Part shown: piece after piece, positions 4,386 through 29,520 of the stretch | Numbering within the stretch: position 1 is the first letter of the stretch | Layout: each line of letters starts with the position of its first letter | The notes under the pieces: generated by a model | What the model was told of the DNA's origin: nothing | Database searches by the model: none | What the model saw: only the letters and a program-made list of their open reading frames with translations | Position numbers and translations under genes: made by a program | IMG/VR virus record: IMGVR_UViG_2693429713_000015 | From: a virus | Taxonomy: Duplodnaviria > Heunggongvirae > Uroviricota > Caudoviricetes | Reading direction: 5' to 3' (one strand) | Length of the DNA: 34,819 bases

Positions 4386-4916
4386 TTACTGCACATCCTG
4401 CTCAAAAGGAATTATTGAAAAATCCTCAATGTCGCTTTTAATGGAAATACCGGGAATATTTTTCACGGCCTCTTTTTCATTCAGGATAGCGTCTTTATTT
4501 ATTTCCTCTTTTACACGAATAAAGCGCTCAAGCCCCAGACGTCTCAGCAGTTCAATGACATTATCCGCCCCGCGAATGCTGACTGACGGCGGACGGTTTC
4601 GCCACTGCACCTCGCCGGTGGTGAGGTTAGCGAACTTCACCTTCCCGTTGCCGGTCAGTTCATCACGGTGCGCCTCACACCATGTCTGGATACCGGACTG
4701 CAGTTCGGCCATGCGTTTTTTCAGGCTCTCGGTGAGCGGGGCATAACGTGCAGTGATGTCGCCAATGGTGTCATTCATTTCTGTTTCAGCCCTGACCAGT
4801 TCACGTTGCGCGTCACCAAGCAGTCTGATTCCCTCAATGACCTCTTCGCGTGTCCCCGGCACCCAGAGTGCTGCTGCGGCTTTGATACGTTTTGCCCCTT
4901 TTGTACTTTTTGCCAT
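4386..4916 (-). CDS. gam: Gam-like host-nuclease inhibitor
   Basis: 176 aa; collinear with Mu Gam as recalled (AKRIKAAAALWVP...RLGLERFIRVKEEINKDAILNEK...IEDFSIIPFEQ). Confidence 0.9.
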   Translation of the reverse strand: MAKSTKGAKRIKAAAALWVPGTREEVIEGIRLLGDAQRELVRAETEMNDTIGDITARYAPLTESLKKRMAELQSGIQTWCEAHRDELTGNGKVKFANLTTGEVQWRNRPPSVSIRGADNVIELLRRLGLERFIRVKEEINKDAILNEKEAVKNIPGISIKSDIEDFSIIPFEQDVQ

Positions 4917-4943
4917 ATTTTATGACTCCTCCTGTTGTGCTGA

Positions 4944-5213
4944 TTACCACAAAGATTCCGGCCACACGACGCGACAGCCGTGCAGTTCGAAAACGCCCTG
5001 ACGGAAATGTCCCCTGTGGTCATGACCGGTATACAGATAACAGGCCTTTCCCTGCTCAAGCATGCGCATGCAATGCGCACTCCGGGAAACGCGGATGACA
5101 GGTTTGTTACCCCTGATGGTGATGCTTTGTACATCCGTGTTCGTCGCCTTAAGCGCCATAATGGCTGACTGCACTTTGCTGATTTGCTGGTTGATACCTG
5201 TGGTGGATTTCAT
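4944..5213 (-). CDS. Hypothetical Cys/His-rich protein (89 aa) in the kil position between B and gam
   Basis: AAGGGG RBS; motif HCMRMLEQGKACYLYTGHDHRGH...HGC; function unknown. Confidence 0.45.
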   Translation of the reverse strand: MKSTTGINQQISKVQSAIMALKATNTDVQSITIRGNKPVIRVSRSAHCMRMLEQGKACYLYTGHDHRGHFRQGVFELHGCRVVWPESLW

Positions 5214-5215
5214 TA

Positions 5216-6382
5216 TTAAACCCCTTTGACAACGTCAGCGTTGACCTGTGGAACCCCGATTTCAGCGGCCAGATTCATGGCGGCTATTACCAGGTTACTG
5301 ACGGCCAGCGGATACAGCAGGCTGACCATATTTTTACGATGACTTCCCGGATTGCTCAGGCGGGCACGTATGGCATCCACTGCGCTGGCGTCCATAATGT
5401 CCGTCAGTTGTTTACCGGCCCGTTGCAGTTTGAACGTCAGAAACTCTTCAAGGTTATTGTCCAGAGGCAGAAGTTCGACCACCTCACAGCGCTGAACGAC
5501 TTCACGGACTTCCATATTGCGTTCAGACAGTTTTGTCGCCAGTTCCGGCTGGCCAATCAGCACGATGGACAGCAGTTTTTTGAAACCGGACTCCAGCTCA
5601 AAAAAGCGTTTGAGGTGTTTCAGTGTCGGAATGGGCAGACTGTGGGCCTCCTCAATCACCAGAACGTGGCTGAACCCCGCCTGGCTGCTGTCTTTCAGGA
5701 CGCGATGCAACTGGCGAAAGCGGGCGTCCTGACTGCGTCTGATGCTTTCCAGTGGTGCGATGGTACTGATAATGGCTTCGGCAATCGCTGCTGCCTTCAG
5801 GGTTTTCCCTTTCACATCGTTGTCTTCCATAGCGATGATGTATGGCTCGATAACAATTACCGGCGCATTCTCGCGGTTGATACGTTCAGTCAGGTCGCGG
5901 CGCAGCGTGGATTTACCCGCACCGGACTCACCGATGACGGCCATAAACCCACCATGACGGGCTGTCTGGTACAACGCCTCACGCACGTAGCGAATATCCG
6001 GGGTGGTGAACACATCATCAGAACCCTGCATGGCTTCGTCGGCGAACGGGTCACGGAAAAGACCAAACGCTTTTTTGGTTGCTGGAAATAACACCTGTTT
6101 TTTGAGTAACATATTCTCTTCCTCACTGAGGCTCGTTTTATCTGTGGTACCCGCTGTACGGGGCGTGGCCGCGCCCTGTACAGCATCAAAACTCTTCGTT
6201 GTATCAATCCCCTGACTTTCCAGCCAGGACGCAAGACGCCGGCGCACTTCTCCGGGGCTGGTGCGGGGCCACGCGTTATGATTCACAATCTGGGCCAGCG
6301 TGGCCTCAGAAACATCGACAGCTCTCGCCACCACCGCCTGTGGAATACGGGCCTCTTTCAGTTGCTGCTTCAGTACCAGCAT
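5216..6382 (-). CDS. DNA transposition ATPase B (MuB-like, AAA+)
   Basis: Walker A GESGAGKST; N-terminal HTH-like segment; immediately downstream of the transposase; preferred start is ATG at 6382 with GAGGAGGG RBS (the ORF track's longer form starts at a GTG). Confidence 0.85.
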   Translation of the reverse strand: MLVLKQQLKEARIPQAVVARAVDVSEATLAQIVNHNAWPRTSPGEVRRRLASWLESQGIDTTKSFDAVQGAATPRTAGTTDKTSLSEEENMLLKKQVLFPATKKAFGLFRDPFADEAMQGSDDVFTTPDIRYVREALYQTARHGGFMAVIGESGAGKSTLRRDLTERINRENAPVIVIEPYIIAMEDNDVKGKTLKAAAIAEAIISTIAPLESIRRSQDARFRQLHRVLKDSSQAGFSHVLVIEEAHSLPIPTLKHLKRFFELESGFKKLLSIVLIGQPELATKLSERNMEVREVVQRCEVVELLPLDNNLEEFLTFKLQRAGKQLTDIMDASAVDAIRARLSNPGSHRKNMVSLLYPLAVSNLVIAAMNLAAEIGVPQVNADVVKGV

Positions 6383-23765: not shown

Positions 23766-24016
23766 TGAAAGCATACCGCTATTCCGGCCCGGCCAGCGGC
23801 GTCACGCTGTCGGACGGAACCGAAATCCTGCTCTGGCCGGGGAAGGCGGTTTCCCTGCCGGAGGAGCATGACTACGTGAAGGTACTGGTGGCGCTGAAGC
23901 ATCTGACGCCGGTACCAGAAGATACTAAACCCGCCGTCACACCGGCTGTGCAGTCACCAAAGCGCAGAAGCAGCAGTGACAGCGAAGTGAAAACGGAGGA
24001 CGCCCATGGCAGCTAA
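23762..24016 (+). CDS. Small hypothetical protein preceding the sheath gene
   Basis: 84 aa; coupled by overlap on both sides. Confidence 0.4.
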   Translation: MMKAYRYSGPASGVTLSDGTEILLWPGKAVSLPEEHDYVKVLVALKHLTPVPEDTKPAVTPAVQSPKRRSSSDSEVKTEDAHGS

Positions 24017-25433
24017 CTATCTGCATGGTCCCGAAACCATTGAGGTGGAAAACGGAGCCCGCCCGGTTAAAACGGTGAAATCTGCCGTTATTGGCCTGAT
24101 TGGTACCGCCCCGATGGGGGATGTCAATACGCTGGTACAGTGCCTGTCTGAGAAAGACGCAGCGGCATTTGGCAGCCAGTTCACCGGCTTTACCATTCCG
24201 CAGGCGCTGGATGCGATTTATGACCATGGTGCAGGCACCGTTCTGGTCATTAACGTCCTCGACCCGGCGAAACATAAAACGGCGATCGAGGATGAGGTGG
24301 TTACCTTTGACAAATCGACAGGGCAGGCCAGACTGGCGCATCCGGTTGTCGCTAATGTGGTGGTGAAAAACAGTGAAGGCAGCACCACCCACACGGCGAA
24401 CACGGACTACCGTGTTGATGCGCAGGCGGGTGTGCTCACGAACCTGGGCAAGGCTATTGAGGCCGGTGGCAGCGTGAAGGTGAGCTATGAGTACGCGGAC
24501 CCGTCGAAGGTGACTGCGGCGGACATCATCGGCGGGGTGAACAGCGCCGGAAACCGAACCGGCATGAAGCTGCTTAACGACAGCTTCAACCTGTACGGCT
24601 ATTTCGCCAAAATTCTGATTGCGCCGGTGTTCTGCACCCAGAAGAGTGTCGCAGTTGAGCTTATCGCCATGGCAGAGAAGCTGGGCGCGGTAACCTACAT
24701 TGATGCGCCTGTCGGTACCACCTTTGCACAGGCTCTGGCAGGTCGTGGCCCGGAAGGCACCATCAACTTCAATACCAGCTCCGACCGCGTCCGTCTGTGC
24801 TATCCGCATGTGAAGGTATATGACCCGGTGACAAACACAGAGCGTCTGGAGCCGCTCAGCCAGCGTGCAGCAGGTCTGCGTGCCAGAGTCGATCTGGACA
24901 AGGGCTACTGGTGGTCATCCTCCAATCAGGAGATTCTGGGGATCACCGGCGTGGAGCGCCAGCTGTCCGCGATGATTGATGACCCGCAGAGTGAGGTAAA
25001 CCTGCTTAACGAACAGGGGATCACCACGGTATTCAGCAGTTACGGCAGCGGCCTTCGTCTGTGGGGTAACCGGACGGCAGCATGGCCAACGGTCACCCAT
25101 ATGCGTAACTTTGAGAACGTTCGCCGCACCGGTGATGTGATCAACGAGTCCATTCGTTATTTCAGCCAGCAGTACATCGACATGCCGATTACTCAGGCGC
25201 TGATTGATGCACTGACGGAGTCGGTCAACGCCTACGGTCGCAAAATGACTGGTGATGGTGCGGTACTGGGCTTCCGTTGCTGGTTTGATCCGGCCCGCAA
25301 TCCGGAGACGGAGCTGGCCGCCGGGCACCTGTTGCTGAGCTACAAATATACGCCACCACCGCCGCTGGAGCGACTGACGTTTGAGACTGAGATCACCTCG
25401 GAATACCTGTTAACCCTGAAAGGGGGCAACTGA
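24006..25433 (+). CDS. Contractile tail sheath protein
   Basis: 475 aa; N-terminus MAANYLHGPETIEV...; followed directly by the tube gene. Confidence 0.85.
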   Translation: MAANYLHGPETIEVENGARPVKTVKSAVIGLIGTAPMGDVNTLVQCLSEKDAAAFGSQFTGFTIPQALDAIYDHGAGTVLVINVLDPAKHKTAIEDEVVTFDKSTGQARLAHPVVANVVVKNSEGSTTHTANTDYRVDAQAGVLTNLGKAIEAGGSVKVSYEYADPSKVTAADIIGGVNSAGNRTGMKLLNDSFNLYGYFAKILIAPVFCTQKSVAVELIAMAEKLGAVTYIDAPVGTTFAQALAGRGPEGTINFNTSSDRVRLCYPHVKVYDPVTNTERLEPLSQRAAGLRARVDLDKGYWWSSSNQEILGITGVERQLSAMIDDPQSEVNLLNEQGITTVFSSYGSGLRLWGNRTAAWPTVTHMRNFENVRRTGDVINESIRYFSQQYIDMPITQALIDALTESVNAYGRKMTGDGAVLGFRCWFDPARNPETELAAGHLLLSYKYTPPPPLERLTFETEITSEYLLTLKGGN

Positions 25434-25954
25434 TGTCAAAGATTGAGATAAACCGCATCACGAATGCCAACATCTATCTGGATGGTACTAACCTGCTGGG
25501 ACGGGCTGAGGAAGTTAAACTCCCCGATGTCTCCATGATTATGCAGGAACACAAGGCGCTGGGGATGGTGGGTAAGGTGGAACTCCCGGCTGGTTTTGAC
25601 AAACTGGAAGGCGAAATCAAATGGAACAGCTTTTACCGCGATGCGATGCTGTCTGCCGCTAACCCGTACAGGTCGCTGGCACTGCAGTGTCGTTCCAGCG
25701 TCCAGCGCTACAGCTCGCAGGGGCTGATTGACGAAATCCCGCTGGTCACCTTCCTGACGATTATGTTCAAGAAGAACCCTCTGGGGACGTTCAAACAGCA
25801 CGAGAACGCCGAGTTCTCCAGTAGCTTCACCTGCACGTATATCAGACAGGTACTGGATGGTGAAGAGCTGCTGCAACTGGACTATCTGGCCAACATCTTC
25901 CGGGTCGGCGGTGTTGATCAACTGACTGACTACCGTATCAATATCGGGGGCTGA
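25433..25954 (+). CDS. Tail tube protein
   Basis: 173 aa immediately after the sheath (ATGA overlap). Confidence 0.8.
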   Translation: MSKIEINRITNANIYLDGTNLLGRAEEVKLPDVSMIMQEHKALGMVGKVELPAGFDKLEGEIKWNSFYRDAMLSAANPYRSLALQCRSSVQRYSSQGLIDEIPLVTFLTIMFKKNPLGTFKQHENAEFSSSFTCTYIRQVLDGEELLQLDYLANIFRVGGVDQLTDYRINIGG

Positions 25955-25990
25955 CGATGAGTGTTGAACTGACGGATAAAGGAAGACGAT

Positions 25991-26239
25991 GTGCGGCACT
26001 GGGCATGTCAAATGGTACGTGGTTTACCCTCCTTGATATTCCGGGGGGTGGAAACCCTTTTTAATACCCGTAAAACCAATGACCCGATTGACTGCACACG
26101 TTCAAAGGCCCGCAAACTGGCGGATTTGATTGAAGCATGGGAGCCTCCCGACCACTGGTTCTCCGGCACCGGCAAATCTGAGGGAAAGACGCTTCTCATC
26201 GCTTTCCTGCGTAACTGCAAGGGGTTTCGCACTTGCTGA
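25991..26239 (+). CDS. Small GTG-initiated ORF (82 aa), doubtful
   Basis: GTG at 25991 with AGGAAG 5 nt upstream; lies in a 380-bp gap between the tube and chaperone genes. Confidence 0.3.
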   Translation: MRHWACQMVRGLPSLIFRGVETLFNTRKTNDPIDCTRSKARKLADLIEAWEPPDHWFSGTGKSEGKTLLIAFLRNCKGFRTC

Positions 26240-26336
26240 CATCACAGGGGCTCCGGCCCCTTCTTCTTAATCTCCTTTAATATCCGTCACGCGCTTCTCC
26301 CGACATACTGCCCTGAACTTACACAGGAGCACAATC

Positions 26337-26609
26337 ATGTCACAGACCCCATCCGATACTTTTAAATTGTCTTATCCCTTCACCACTGCTGCAGGCACCA
26401 GAATTGAGCAGGTTGAACTGAAACGCCTGACGGTAAAAGACCTGAAGCAGGTGCGCAAAATCAGCAAAAACCCGGCAGACTGGGACGAACCGCTGATTGC
26501 CCGCAGTACTGGTCTTCTCCCGGAAGATCTCGACAATATGGATCTGGCTGATTACCTGCAGTTACAGAAACGATTTCAGCTCATCACGGGGATGGGTGAG
26601 AGCAACTAG
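26337..26609 (+). CDS. Tail assembly chaperone (P2 gpE-like)
   Basis: 90 aa; ACAGGAG RBS; sits just upstream of the tape measure gene with an overlapping extension frame. Confidence 0.65.
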   Translation: MSQTPSDTFKLSYPFTTAAGTRIEQVELKRLTVKDLKQVRKISKNPADWDEPLIARSTGLLPEDLDNMDLADYLQLQKRFQLITGMGESN

Positions 26610-26754
26610 GGCGCTGACGCAGGCGCAGGGGCTGCTGGCGAGATGGTTCCGGTTTCAGCCGGGGGAGATTGATGCCCTCGATACTGACGATCTGGAGATG
26701 TGGCTGGAGCAGGCTGAAGAGCAAATAAAAAGCGAGTACGGCGACAAATCATAG
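26497..26754 (+). CDS. Frameshift extension of the tail chaperone (E'-like), +1 frame
   Basis: Frame open across the end of the chaperone gene and continuing 145 nt past its stop, with no credible start of its own in the meaningful part; encodes an acidic tail (...EIDALDTDDLEMWLEQAEEQIKSEYGDKS). Confidence 0.45.
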   Translation: MPAVLVFSRKISTIWIWLITCSYRNDFSSSRGWVRATRALTQAQGLLARWFRFQPGEIDALDTDDLEMWLEQAEEQIKSEYGDKS

Positions 26755-26829
26755 TACAGACAGCCGCCAGTAGCGGCTGTTCTGCGTTATCCCCTCACGT
26801 CTTTTCACCTTCCCCGGAGGTTAACCACT

Positions 26830-29520
26830 ATGTCGGGACAGTTTTCAGTCGGCGTTGTTATCGGCGGGATGATTGGTAGCACATTCCGTTCTGCAATGAG
26901 CGGTACCCGCCGTGCGCTTGATTCCCTGAGCGATACCTCACGCCGCCTGCAGGAACGTCAGAACGCTTTAACCCGTGCAACAGAACGTTATGGTCAACTG
27001 GGTTCTTCCCGGATGCAGCATCTCAACAGCGAGCTGCTGCGGGTAAGCCGCACCATGGAGCAAATTGAGCGCCAGCAGCGCCGTCTGTCAGCGGCATCCG
27101 CTACCAGTGATGCGCTGAAAGCTAACCGCATGGCGCTGTATGGTCAGGGGATTGAAGCGTATGGCATGGCACAGACTGTTTATCATACGGTTTCCCCTGC
27201 CGTTCAGCAGTCCATGTCTTTTCAGGACAAAATGATTGATATGTCGATCACCGCAAAATATGACAATAAAACGCGGGATGGACTTGCCGGACAGATAAAA
27301 GGCTGGGCGCTTAAATACAATCAGTATCAGGATGAGCTGCAGGAGGCGGTGGGTTCACTCATCAGCGACAATATTGATAATGTGTCAGATATCGGTTTTC
27401 TGATGCCGGATATTGCCCGCGCGGCAACGGCAACACGCACGTCTGCTCAGGACTGGGCAAAAGTGGCCGCAGTCTGGCAAAACTCCCTGAAAGGTGCGGC
27501 CAGAGATTTTGGTGCCGTTCAGAATATTATGGCTTATGCCGGTGACCAGGGGTCATTTGAAATCCCGGATCAGGTCAAGTGGATGCAGTCCCTGGCCCCA
27601 ATGATGGCGGGTATTGCCAGTGGAAAAGAGGCTGTTGCTGAAATCGGGGCCAGTCTCCAGATAGCAAAAATCGGTGCAGGTTCCACCGACGAAGCAGCCA
27701 ATAATTTTAAAAACTTTCTTACCAAAATTTTTGCCCGCGATACTCAGAAACAGTTTGCTGATCTGGGTATTGATTTGCAGGGATCTATTGCGAGTTATAA
27801 AGCTGCGGGGATCTCTCCGATTGAAGGGATGTTGAGTGTTATAGAACGTTACCTCAATGCCAAAAGCCCCGAAGCGCTGGCCGGCTTCAAATCAGCCATG
27901 AAAATAAAGAATGATACGGCAAGAGATGAGGCACTTCAGGCTCTGGCGAAAAACTTTGGTCTGGGCGATATGTTCGCGGATATGCAGGTCATGGCATTTA
28001 TCCGCCCGATGCTGGCCAACATGGACAGATATCGAGAGATCCGTGCCGGTGCTCTCAGGGCTGCGGATAACGATTTGCTTGCCAGTGCTTATGATCAGCG
28101 GCTGAAATCTCCCCTTGAAGCCACTAAAACACTTATGGTCAGCAGTCGCGATCTGGCAATTACGCTGGGCGATCAATTAGCTCCATCTTTTATTTCTTTG
28201 ACTCAGGAACTGCTTCCACTCATTCAGGGGGCAAAACACTGGGTAGCGACTCACCCGCAATTTGTCAGTGGGGCTTTTAAGCTCATCAGTGCGCTCCTTG
28301 CGATTAAGATAGCGACTGTTGGTCTCAAACTGGGGCTGAATCTCCTTATTTCCCCCTTTGTAAGTGTCTGGAAAAATGCTGTTTTACTTCGGGCCAACTG
28401 GCTTCGTCTGTCGCTCGCACTGGGGCAAGGCGGTAAGCTCCGCTGGCTGGTGACCGGATTTAGCGCCGTCGCCAGAGGAGCCAGAACACTGAGTGGCGTG
28501 CTCTCCGGGGGGCTGGTTCGCGGAATTATGCTCGCCGGACGTGCTGTTCTCTGGATTGGACGTGCGCTGATGATGAATCCCATCGGTCTCGTTATCACCG
28601 CTGTCGCGGCAGCAGCTTACCTTATCTACCGCAACTGGGGGGCAGTCAGTGGCTGGTTTAAACAGCGCTGGGCAGACATTCAGGAAGCCTTTAACGGCGG
28701 CATTGTGGGAATTGGTAAGTTACTGATTAACTGGTCGCCGGCAGGCCTGCTCTATAAAGCCTTTGCAGCTGCGCTGAAATATCTTGGTGTTGATCTGCCG
28801 GCAAAGTTTACCGACTTCGGTGGCCATCTTGTCGATGGTCTGATTAACGGTATCAAAAACAAATGGGAGTCGCTCAAATCCAGTGTAACCGGAATGGGTG
28901 ACAGCATCAGTGGCTGGTTCAGCGAAAAGCTGGGCATTCATTCGCCGAGCCGCGTGTTTATGGGCTTTGGTGACAATATCGCGCAGGGGGCCGCCATTGG
29001 CCTGCAGCGGACCACTCCGCTTGCAGCTCTGGCCGGGCAGCGAATGGCCAGTGAACTGCTCCCCAGAATGCCCGTGAGCATCCAGGGGCCAGAAATACGG
29101 GATAACACTTCAGGTGTTCGCTTCAGTATGCCGTTGCCCGATATCAATGGGTTTATGTCGTCTGCTAAAAATGCGATCGGAGCCGTAATCAATAGTTTGT
29201 CTTCCATGCCCGCTATTCCGCTCTCCACCCGGGCATCGATTTTACCAGGGCAACGTCTGGCAAATGAGATGACACCGGATGTTCCCCGTATCCCCTCGCC
29301 TGAAATCCTGGCTGCCGGATATTCAGGCCGTGGTGCAGCTGCAACCGGCGGTGGAACGTCTGGTGGTATCCAGGTCAGCTTTAATCCTCAGTTTTTCCTC
29401 AATGGCAGGGAAACCACAGCGCCTGCAGGACTGACTGGTGCCCTGAATATGAGTCTGCATGAGCTGGAAAAAATGCTGGAGCGTCTGCTGGCTCAGAAAC
29501 AACGTAAGGAGTACCGCTGA
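26830..29520 (+). CDS. Tail tape measure protein
   Basis: 896 aa, helical N-terminal half, hydrophobic central segments and Gly-rich C-terminus; CCGGAGG RBS. Confidence 0.85.
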   Translation: MSGQFSVGVVIGGMIGSTFRSAMSGTRRALDSLSDTSRRLQERQNALTRATERYGQLGSSRMQHLNSELLRVSRTMEQIERQQRRLSAASATSDALKANRMALYGQGIEAYGMAQTVYHTVSPAVQQSMSFQDKMIDMSITAKYDNKTRDGLAGQIKGWALKYNQYQDELQEAVGSLISDNIDNVSDIGFLMPDIARAATATRTSAQDWAKVAAVWQNSLKGAARDFGAVQNIMAYAGDQGSFEIPDQVKWMQSLAPMMAGIASGKEAVAEIGASLQIAKIGAGSTDEAANNFKNFLTKIFARDTQKQFADLGIDLQGSIASYKAAGISPIEGMLSVIERYLNAKSPEALAGFKSAMKIKNDTARDEALQALAKNFGLGDMFADMQVMAFIRPMLANMDRYREIRAGALRAADNDLLASAYDQRLKSPLEATKTLMVSSRDLAITLGDQLAPSFISLTQELLPLIQGAKHWVATHPQFVSGAFKLISALLAIKIATVGLKLGLNLLISPFVSVWKNAVLLRANWLRLSLALGQGGKLRWLVTGFSAVARGARTLSGVLSGGLVRGIMLAGRAVLWIGRALMMNPIGLVITAVAAAAYLIYRNWGAVSGWFKQRWADIQEAFNGGIVGIGKLLINWSPAGLLYKAFAAALKYLGVDLPAKFTDFGGHLVDGLINGIKNKWESLKSSVTGMGDSISGWFSEKLGIHSPSRVFMGFGDNIAQGAAIGLQRTTPLAALAGQRMASELLPRMPVSIQGPEIRDNTSGVRFSMPLPDINGFMSSAKNAIGAVINSLSSMPAIPLSTRASILPGQRLANEMTPDVPRIPSPEILAAGYSGRGAAATGGGTSGGIQVSFNPQFFLNGRETTAPAGLTGALNMSLHELEKMLERLLAQKQRKEYR

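What the first reader, a model, noticed from the sequence alone, without database searches (positions are those of the whole stretch)
26337..26754. Tail assembly chaperone with a candidate programmed frameshift into the +1 frame
The 90-aa chaperone ORF ends at 26609, while the +1 frame is open across its last about 110 nt and continues 145 nt further, encoding an acidic tail. The -1 frame is closed by a TGA at 26597-26599, so the usual -1 mechanism cannot operate near the end of the gene. I found no canonical slippery heptamer, so the shift site is unidentified.
Basis: partly seen in the sequence, partly recalled or inferred. Interest (0 to 1): 0.45.

Follow-up and report, generated by a model that had tools for sequence, protein, structure and literature searches.

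The report
Phage tail chaperone +1 frameshift site

Summary
A 90-aa PF10109 chaperone ORF (26337-26609) overlaps a +1-frame ORF that runs to 26754, and the -1 frame is closed at 26597.

Two things change the picture.

1. The TAG at 26607 is a derived CAG>TAG mutation. At most 6 of 589 complete E. coli genomes carry it. The common allele is 111 aa and ends at 26672. The change is synonymous in the +1 frame.

2. Comparison of 121 related loci (Enterobacterales, Ralstonia-, Burkholderia- and Pseudomonas-like) shows the extension, a P2 GpE'-like domain, always in the +1 frame. The only invariant string in the permitted interval is TTT_C at a conserved Phe (window 26574-26577, mostly CGA_TTT_C).
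- Synonymous variation collapses over 26565-26579, and the selected frame switches to +1 just downstream.
- The experimentally verified Mu -2 junction aligns to the same spot.
- No start codon for the extension is conserved, and no conserved RNA structure was found.

Best reading: a +1 programmed frameshift of tRNA-Phe (UUU to UUC) gives a 138-aa E+E' fusion, join(26337..26576, 26578..26754). UUU_Y is an established +1-prone site.

This is a new member of a known kind, with moderate interest. Public annotation misses it. No experiment supports it yet.

The parts
26337..26609 (+). Frame-0 chaperone ORF (gpE / Mu gp41 type), 90-aa truncated allele
   Evidence: ORF list. PF10109 Phage_TAC_7 covers aa 8-82, E = 1.9e-22. 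The identical DNA in E. coli EcPF7 is flagged 'internal stop' by PGAP.
26607..26609 (+). Derived amber codon (CAG>TAG, C>T at 26607); synonymous ACC>ACT in the +1 frame
   Evidence: Alignment with PhiKM and AR_0015 (CAG) and more distant relatives (AAA/GAA). The exact 61-mer occurs in 6 of 589 complete E. coli genomes. The 90-aa protein P0012 is on 914 contigs.
26610..26672 (+). Ancestral continuation of frame 0 to TGA 26670-26672 (111-aa allele); shows no selection of its own
   Evidence: Here variation sits at +1-frame third positions: 0.199 against 0.064 and 0.068. The frame-0 stop position differs among relatives.
26565..26579 (+). Invariant block CAG AAA CGA TTT CAG around the shift site
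   Evidence: Third-position diversity is 0.048 here against 0.395 in the upstream part of the gene, in 55 unique enteric sequences. The 5-codon sum is 0.24, against a minimum of 1.16 anywhere upstream.
26571..26577 (+). Proposed +1 shift site CGA_UUU_C: tRNA-Phe slips from UUU 26574-76 to UUC 26575-77, and the next codon read is AGC 26578-80
   Evidence: TTT_C is found at the homologous Phe in 121/121 loci. CGATTTC is the only invariant block in a 14-lineage alignment. In 21 loci the +1 frame opens only 8 nt upstream of TTT. UUU_Ynn is a known +1-prone site (PMC5009743).
26578..26754 (+). E' extension in the +1 frame (58 aa plus stop): SSSRGWVRATRALTQAQGLLARWFRFQPGEIDALDTDDLEMWLEQAEEQIKSEYGDKS
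   Evidence: Translation. phrog_8286, E = 2e-34. tblastn shows the same frame relation in Klebsiella, Salmonella and Ralstonia phages.
26635..26733 (+). Core of E' that resembles P2 GpE' (PF06528)
   Evidence: PF06528 matches aa 100-132 of the fusion and profile positions 4-36 of 37, at 18.3 bits, below the 23-bit cut-off. 8 of 16 relatives match, best E = 9.1e-6. PGAP names the ORF 'GpE family phage tail protein'.
26761..26779 (+). Conserved hairpin CAGCCGC-CAGTA-GCGGCTG between E' and the tape measure gene
   Evidence: Read. The stem is conserved and the loop varies among relatives. The terminator scan did not call it.
26830..29520 (+). Tape measure protein gene, the client of the chaperone
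   Evidence: PF10145, E = 1.7e-20.
25433..25954 (+). Tail tube gene, upstream neighbour that defines the tube-chaperone-tape measure order
   Evidence: PF04985, E = 2.9e-53.

Best explanation
The locus is the E/E+E' (lambda G/GT-type) tail assembly chaperone pair of a BcepMu-like (Bcepmuvirus) prophage of E. coli.

Most ribosomes translate frame 0 and make the short chaperone. It is 111 aa in the common allele and 90 aa here because of a CAG>TAG mutation.

A minority shift +1 at codon 80. Peptidyl-tRNA-Phe, paired to UUU (26574-26576), re-pairs with the overlapping, better-matched UUC (26575-26577). Alternatively, with CGA in the P site, Phe-tRNA binds UUC out of frame; the product is the same. 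Translation continues from AGC 26578 to the stop at 26752-26754.

The product is a 138-aa fusion, join(26337..26576, 26578..26754). Its N-terminal PF10109 domain would bind the tape measure protein. Its GpE'-like C-terminal domain would recruit the tube or tail-initiation partner, as described for lambda gpGT.

What is shown:
- gene identity and gene order;
- the +1 geometry and its conservation;
- nucleotide-level invariance of UUU_C;
- the switch of the selected frame;
- the absence of a conserved start codon for E'.

What is inferred: the slip itself, its direction (+1 rather than -2), its efficiency, and the roles of the two domains.

The amber codon lies downstream of the site and is silent in the +1 frame. 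It should leave the fusion intact and only shorten an unconstrained tail of the short product.
For: 1. Identity and order. PF10109 with E = 1.9e-22, between tube and tape measure. Phage PhiKM (Bcepmuvirus) is 99.2% identical.

2. Frame geometry. E' is in the +1 frame in 121/121 loci from at least seven lineages. A Pasteurella relative and P2 use the -1 frame, so the frame relation is a clade property and not an artefact.

3. The site. TTT_C is invariant at the homologous Phe. The contexts are CGA TTT CAG/CAA/CTG/CTC, TCC/GCC/TCT TTT CGC/CGT and GTG/ACG TTT CGG/CAA. This holds although the GC-rich clades use TTT for only 5-16% of Phe codons and CGA for about 5% of Arg codons in BcepMu CDSs and the Ralstonia-like loci.

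4. Permitted interval. In 21 loci the +1 frame opens 8 nt before TTT. In BcepMu-type loci a conserved Trp in the +1 frame lies 3 codons after it. UUU_C is the only codon in that interval that allows cognate re-pairing.

5. Selection. Synonymous variation collapses over 26565-26579 (0.048 against 0.395). Downstream, variation moves to +1-frame third positions.

6. The Mu junction. The experimentally verified Mu -2 junction (QERGR|EWLR) aligns with the W-[LV]-R motif that follows our site.

7. Literature. [quoted passage not shown] The influenza PA-X site is UCC_UUU_CGU; BcepMu has UCC_UUU_CGC. Tail chaperone recoding uses -1, -2 or +1 in different phages (PMC5009743).

8. No independent start. 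No start codon for E' is conserved, and four lineages have none.
Against: - There are no experimental data for this clade.
- No recognisable stimulator was found. The frame-0 A-site codon CAG is common in E. coli, there is no Shine-Dalgarno-like element upstream, and no conserved downstream structure (consensus -2.9 kcal/mol, no covariation). Efficiency could therefore be very low.
- The Phe is conserved as an amino acid, so part of the TTT conservation is protein-level. Only the choice of TTT over TTC and the following C are nucleotide-level signals.
- The lineages are phylogenetically related, so the 121 loci are not 121 independent trials.
- The BcepMu authors annotated the +1 ORF as a separate gene (gp42) with slippage into a further ORF (gp43).
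- This prophage copy also carries a frameshifted neighbouring gene, so the module may not be expressed productively in this strain.
Confidence: 0.74

Rival explanations
1. E' is translated on its own from an internal start. PGAP annotates it this way, as a 46-aa 'GpE family phage tail protein' starting at CTG 26614. GTG 26596 or, in relatives, ATG at the equivalent of 26617 are other candidates. On this reading no frameshift is needed.
For: PGAP calls a separate CDS. BcepMu gp42 is annotated as a separate gene. Many enteric relatives have an ATG 12 codons before the FQPGEI motif in the E' core, and the window has a GTG at 26596 preceded by GGGGA.
Against: The candidate starts sit at different positions in different lineages, mostly without a Shine-Dalgarno-like sequence. 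L044, L077, L111 and L112 have no ATG/GTG/TTG at all between UUU_C and the E' core. The window has ACG where relatives have ATG. The W-[LV]-R motif upstream of all these candidates is conserved in the +1 frame and matches the Mu trans-frame peptide. In the homologous P2 and Mu systems E' is made only as a fusion.
Confidence: 0.08
2. The +1 frame is reached by a -2 slip, as in phage Mu, rather than by a +1 slip.
For: Mu belongs to the same PF10109 family, has its extension in the same relative frame, and uses a verified -2 shift on GG_GGG_CGA. CGA is also conserved next to our site.
Against: There is no GGGGGCGA or other repeat that would allow re-pairing 2 nt back. The codon 5' of CGA varies (AAA, ACC, GAC, GCC, GAG, GAA, CAA), and CGA is absent from the Burkholderia and Pseudomonas clades. 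tRNA-Phe moved 2 nt back would face GAU, and with CGA in the A site tRNA-Arg would face AAC.
Confidence: 0.05
3. The shift happens at a different, lineage-specific site in this window: GGG_A at 26589-26592, or the G5 run in GCC_GGG_GGA_G at 26661-26665 of the intact allele.
For: GGG_A allows tRNA-Gly(UCC) to re-pair on GGA. The G5 run is conserved, and sporadic database 'fusion' proteins have their junction there (P0003-P0005, L081).
Against: GGG_A is GGG_C or absent in relatives. In most relatives frame 0 stops at GGTTTAG, before the G5 run. The G5 run lies inside the conserved E' core (…RFQPGEID…), so a shift there would lose half the domain. In this window it is also downstream of the TAG. 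The database fusions have junctions at several different homopolymers, which is what sequencing errors or sporadic indels would give.
Confidence: 0.06
4. In this particular copy the module is simply decaying, and the overlap has no current function.
For: There are two lesions within 600 bp: a G5>G6 insertion that frameshifts the upstream 93-aa gene, and the amber codon in E. PGAP marks both as pseudogenes in the identical EcPF7 genome.
Against: This does not explain the conserved architecture. The amber codon is silent in the +1 frame and leaves the whole PF10109 domain. Natural relatives end frame 0 as soon as 8-14 residues after the Phe (P0105, P0098), against 10 here. The 90-aa allele is found on 914 contigs.
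Confidence: 0.07

Closest known systems
Phage P2 gpE / gpE+E' (FETUD operon), a lambda gpG/gpGT-type chaperone pair
   Same: The position between tube and tape measure genes; a short PF10109-type chaperone; a C-terminal extension related to PF06528 GpE'; a fusion of about 140 aa (142 in P2, 138 here); a shift at a Phe codon at the end of the chaperone domain (P2: GGU_UUU_UUG).
   Different: P2 shifts -1 on the heptamer T_TTT_TTG. Here the extension is in the +1 frame, there is no heptamer, and the -1 frame is closed. The window's own E' scores below the Pfam cut-off (18.3 against 23 bits).
Phage Mu gp41 / gp41-frameshift product (verified -2 shift on GG_GGG_CGA; Xu, Hendrix and Duda 2004)
   Same: The same Pfam family, the same relative frame for the extension, a trans-frame peptide that starts with the homologous W-L/V-R motif, and a CGA codon at the site.
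   Different: The proposed step is +1 on UUU_C, and the product would lack the extra residue that a -2 shift adds.
UUU_Ynn +1 shift-prone sites (E. coli studies; Yersinia YopN-TyeA; influenza A PA-X UCC_UUU_CGU)
   Same: A frame-0 UUU followed by a pyrimidine, so that tRNA-Phe(GAA) gains a G:C wobble pair after a +1 slip. The BcepMu clade has UCC_UUU_CGC, nearly the PA-X cassette.
   Different: Those cases are in unrelated genes. Here the A-site codon is not rare (CAG), and no stimulator was identified.
Forward (+1) frameshifts annotated in tail assembly chaperones of actinobacteriophages (SEA-PHAGES) and of the archaeal virus HSTV-2
   Same: The same gene role and the same direction. About 350 forward cases are in the PRFect training set (PMC10885494). 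HSTV-2 is mentioned in PMC5009743.
   Different: The protein families and hosts differ. Those sites are mostly inferred from annotation and were not compared here.

Membership tests
lambda G/GT - P2 E/E+E' tail assembly chaperone pair | Gene lies between the major tail (tube) gene and the tape measure gene | tested here: met
   Tube 25433-25954 (PF04985), chaperone 26337-, tape measure 26830-29520 (PF10145).
lambda G/GT - P2 E/E+E' tail assembly chaperone pair | N-terminal chaperone domain of the E/gp41 type | tested here: met
   PF10109, 79.5 bits against a cut-off of 25.
lambda G/GT - P2 E/E+E' tail assembly chaperone pair | Overlapping second frame that encodes a conserved extension without its own conserved start | tested here: met
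   +1 ORF 26497-26754. It is conserved in 121/121 loci, and no start codon is conserved.
lambda G/GT - P2 E/E+E' tail assembly chaperone pair | Extension homologous to P2 GpE' (PF06528) | tested here: inconclusive
   The window's E' scores 18.3 bits, below the 23-bit cut-off. 8 of 16 clade members match, best E = 9.1e-6. NCBIfam gave no hit.
lambda G/GT - P2 E/E+E' tail assembly chaperone pair | -1 slippery heptamer X_XXY_YYZ near the end of the first ORF | tested here: not met
   There is no heptamer in the overlap, and the -1 frame has stops at 26549, 26597 and 26615.
lambda G/GT - P2 E/E+E' tail assembly chaperone pair | Fusion protein made at a low, fixed ratio and required for tail assembly | not testable with these tools
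   This needs protein analysis and genetics.
Mu-type -2 frameshift | Extension in the +1 (= -2) frame | tested here: met
Mu-type -2 frameshift | GG_GGG_CGA (or another motif that allows tandem re-pairing 2 nt upstream) | tested here: not met
   The motif is absent from 26337-26672, and the codons 5' of CGA vary.
UUU_Y +1 programmed/shift-prone site | Frame-0 UUU followed by a pyrimidine, within the interval where both frames are open | tested here: met
   UUU_C at 26574-26577. The +1 frame is open from 26497 and frame 0 is open to 26607.
UUU_Y +1 programmed/shift-prone site | Conservation of the tetranucleotide beyond what the protein requires | tested here: met
   121/121 loci have TTT_C although GC-rich clades use TTT for only 5-16% of Phe codons. 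Diversity is zero at the CGA and TTT third positions.
UUU_Y +1 programmed/shift-prone site | Stimulatory element (slow or stop A-site codon, upstream Shine-Dalgarno-like sequence, or RNA structure) | tested here: not met
   The A-site codon is CAG/CUG/CGC, no Shine-Dalgarno-like sequence is present, and no conserved structure was found. A role for the E/P-site CGA is speculation.
UUU_Y +1 programmed/shift-prone site | Measured frameshifting at the site | not testable with these tools
   This needs a reporter assay or mass spectrometry.

The most novel reading that the evidence does not exclude
CGA_UUU_C (UCC/GCC_UUU_CGC in Burkholderia phages) would be a genuine, previously undescribed +1 programmed frameshift signal of the P2/Mu E-type chaperone family. 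It would be a third recoding solution beside -1 (P2) and -2 (Mu) for one homologous gene pair. It would work without any classical stimulator and would be nearly identical to the influenza PA-X cassette. It is present in prophages of about 15% of complete E. coli genomes and is systematically mis-annotated. The strict CGA in two clades would point to an effect of an I:A-wobble tRNA-Arg in the E or P site on frame maintenance in bacteria.
Probability: 0.45. Interest if true: 0.55.

Novelty: new member of a known kind. Interest (0 to 1): 0.4.

Why it matters
- It would give a natural series in which one homologous gene pair reaches its extension by -1 (P2), -2 (Mu) or +1 (this clade). That is useful for asking how recoding signals are exchanged during evolution.
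- It offers a simple test system in E. coli for +1 slippage at UUU_C without a stimulator, and for a possible effect of a neighbouring CGA codon.
- Practically, the fusion is missing from public annotation. PGAP lists either nothing or a CTG-initiated 46-aa 'GpE family' protein, and it calls the amber allele a pseudogene although the predicted fusion is untouched. BcepMu's own record interprets the ORFs differently.
- Related sequence matched in 825 of 5426 complete E. coli genomes.

Tried and rejected
1. G5 run (26661-65) as a Mu-like site. Rejected: most relatives stop frame 0 before it, and it lies inside the E' core.

2. Downstream stimulatory RNA structure. MFE z-scores scatter from -2.7 to +1.4 across 18 lineages. 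RNAalifold gives -2.9 kcal/mol and no covariation.

3. Natural in-frame E-E' fusions as 'Rosetta stone' evidence for the junction. Proteins of 138 aa exist, but their junctions fall at different homopolymers (G5, A5 and others) and are mostly single contigs, so they are errors or sporadic indels and say nothing about the site. L081 is one of these.

4. No hits in NCBIfam or in PDB sequences.

6. Xu et al. 2004 and Schwartz and Curran 1997 are not in the held library. Their content is cited only through PMC3458567 and PMC5009743.

7. No held paper links Bcepmuvirus chaperones to a frameshift. The KS10 paper reports finding no frameshift site in a related Burkholderia phage.

8. AAA_C (26568) as the site. 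Rejected because that codon varies among relatives (AAA, ACC, GAC, GCC, GAG, GAA, CAA).

Full report
**What is there.** The window carries the tail module of a BcepMu-like prophage.
- Gene order is sheath (24006-25433), tube (25433-25954), a small gene, the chaperone ORF (26337-26609), the tape measure gene (26830-29520), then gpU, gpX and gpD homologues.
- The region is 99.2% identical to Escherichia phage PhiKM (genus Bcepmuvirus) and 100% identical to the E. coli EcPF7 chromosome.
- The chaperone ORF is PF10109 'Phage tail assembly chaperone proteins, E, or 41 or 14' (E = 1.9e-22). This is the family of P2 gpE and Mu gp41.

**Check of the observation.**
- Frame 0 stops at TAG 26607-26609.
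- The +1 frame is open from 26497 to 26754.
- The -1 frame has stops at 26549, 26597 and 26615.
- No X_XXY_YYZ heptamer lies in the overlap.

**The stop codon is a mutation.**
- In the identical EcPF7 sequence, PGAP marks the gene as a pseudogene with an 'internal stop' spanning 336 bp.
- PhiKM and E. coli AR_0015 have CAG where the window has TAG, and they encode a 111-aa protein that ends at the TGA equivalent to 26670-26672.
- Only 6 of 589 complete E. coli genomes with this segment carry the exact 61-mer with TAG. The 90-aa protein is nevertheless on 914 contigs in the large protein collection, so the allele circulates in a sequenced lineage.
- The C>T change at 26607 is ACC>ACT (Thr) in the +1 frame.
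- Relatives end frame 0 at different places: 92, 100, 101, 104, 106 and 111 aa, which is 8 to 31 residues after the conserved Phe.
- Beyond 26613, variation falls only at +1-frame third positions (0.199 against 0.064 and 0.068). The frame-0 tail is therefore not under selection of its own, and the truncation to 90 aa (10 residues after the Phe, PF10109 domain intact) is probably harmless.

**The extension.**
- The +1 peptide (…LLARWFRFQPGEIDALDTDDLEMWLEQAEEQIK…) matches phrog_8286 (E = 2e-34).
- It matches PF06528 'Phage P2 GpE' weakly: 18.3 bits against a cut-off of 23, covering profile positions 4-36 of 37.
- Eight of 16 homologous extensions from the clade match PF06528, best E = 9.1e-6.
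- PGAP calls it 'GpE family phage tail protein', starting at a CTG.
- It aligns with the P2 E' and Mu extensions.

**Comparative survey.**
- I collected relatives by tblastn against phage records, by four IMG/VR scans and by look-ups of contigs that encode distant homologues.
- In all 121 loci where both parts are recognisable, E' lies in the +1 frame relative to E. These loci come from E. coli, Klebsiella, Salmonella, Citrobacter and Xenorhabdus, and from Ralstonia-like, Burkholderia (BcepMu)-like and Pseudomonas-like phages.
- A Pasteurella phage and P2 have E' in the -1 frame. The +1 arrangement is therefore a conserved property of this clade.

**Locating the shift.**
1. In most enteric relatives frame 0 ends at GGTTTAG (equivalent to 26648-50), so the conserved G5 run at 26661-65 cannot be a shared site.
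2. In 21 loci (Ralstonia- and Pseudomonas-like) a +1-frame stop lies just 8 nt upstream of a conserved TTT.
3. In BcepMu-type loci a Trp conserved in the +1 frame lies three codons after that TTT. The same W-[LV]-R motif starts the trans-frame part of the experimentally verified Mu product (…QERGR|EWLR…).
4. Within the interval left, the only invariant string is TTT_C at a conserved Phe (codon 80; window 26574-26577). The contexts are CGA TTT CAG/CAA/CTG/CTC, TCC/GCC/TCT TTT CGC/CGT and GTG/ACG TTT CGG/CAA.
5. The GC-rich clades keep TTT although they use it for only 5-16% of Phe codons. The Ralstonia-like clade keeps CGA although it is about 5% of Arg codons.
6. In 55 unique enteric sequences, third-position diversity is 0.395 over the upstream part of the gene and 0.048 over CAG AAA CGA TTT CAG (26565-26579). 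The 5-codon sum is 0.24, against a minimum of 1.16 for any upstream 5-codon stretch.
7. Just downstream, the position of highest variation moves from frame-0 third positions to +1-frame third positions.

**Mechanism.**
- UUU_C lets tRNA-Phe (anticodon GAA) exchange a G:U wobble pair for a G:C pair by moving one base forward.
[quoted passage not shown] It also gives the influenza PA-X site as UCC_UUU_CGU (PMC5009743). BcepMu has UCC_UUU_CGC.
- The same review notes that tail chaperone recoding uses -1, -2 or +1 in different phages.
- About 350 forward cases are annotated in actinobacteriophage chaperones (PMC10885494).
There is no such run, and the codon 5' of CGA varies.
- The predicted product is join(26337..26576, 26578..26754), 138 aa, close to the 142 aa of P2 E+E'.
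- I found no stimulator: the next codon, CAG, is common, there is no Shine-Dalgarno-like element, and there is no conserved structure. The strict CGA in two clades may matter. CGA is decoded through an I:A wobble pair and is also the A-site codon of the Mu site. This remains conjecture.

**Rivals.**
- Independent initiation of E'. This is the main alternative because annotation pipelines draw it that way. However, candidate starts are not positionally conserved, four lineages have none, and conserved +1-frame sequence extends upstream of all of them.
- Database proteins that look like in-frame fusions have junctions at several different homopolymers and are best explained as errors or sporadic indels.
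- Decay of this copy. It also has a G5>G6 insertion that breaks the upstream 93-aa gene, so the prophage may be defective in this strain whatever the ancestral mechanism.

**Verdict.** The site can now be proposed with good comparative support, but nothing has been tested at the protein level. It is a new member of a known kind: programmed frameshifting in tail assembly chaperones, at a known type of +1-prone site. I found no description of it for this clade in the held literature, and public annotation misses it. Interest is moderate.

Noticed in passing
window 26043-26048 (in the small gene 25957-26239): A run of six G where PhiKM, AR_0015 and GABEEC10 have five. This frameshifts the 93-aa gene between tube and chaperone (phrog_1239, unknown function). 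PGAP flags it 'frameshifted' in the identical EcPF7 genome. It is a second lesion in this prophage copy, or a homopolymer sequencing error.
   Followed up: partly
window 26246-26261: Terminator-like hairpin AGGGGC-TCCG-GCCCCT followed by TCTTCTTAAT, between the small gene and the chaperone gene. It may attenuate transcription or stabilise the mRNA within the tail operon.
   Followed up: no
window 26761-26779: Perfect 7-bp hairpin CAGCCGC/GCGGCTG just after the E' stop and 50 nt before the tape measure start. The stem is invariant and the loop varies among relatives at 82-89% identity. It was not called as a terminator because the T tract is poor.
   Followed up: partly
L091 (BcepMu AY539836) 4603-5364: The BcepMu record annotates the E homologue as gp41 ('conserved protein'), the +1-frame E' ORF as a separate gp42 ('probable lambda G'), and a further ORF gp43 as its slippage product. 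The data here suggest instead that gp41 and gp42 are the E/E' pair, joined at UCC_UUU_CGC.
   Followed up: partly
L081 (IMGVR_UViG_2734481909_000003) and proteins P0001-P0011: Sporadic in-frame E-E' 'fusions' of 138-144 aa whose junctions fall at different homopolymer runs (G5, A5 and others). Most are single contigs from read-archive assemblies and are probably indel errors. They show how easily this overlap is mis-assembled.
   Followed up: yes
L107-L115, L008, L117-L127: In the Ralstonia-like loci the Lys codon preceded by xTG (GTG AAG / CTG AAG) creates a +1-frame TGA three codons before the UUU_C site; the Pseudomonas-like loci (all but one) have a +1-frame stop at the same distance, created by a different codon pair (GTG ACC in L009). 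Ribosomes that slip +1 earlier would terminate at this stop. It might be a conserved guard, or simply a by-product of the amino-acid sequence.
   Followed up: no
window 26337-26754 as annotated in RefSeq E. coli genomes: PGAP handles the locus inconsistently. Genomes with the intact 111-aa gene get no E' CDS at all. Genomes with shorter frame-0 ORFs get a separate 45-46-aa 'GpE family phage tail protein' that starts at ATG or CTG. None carries a ribosomal-slippage join.
   Followed up: yes
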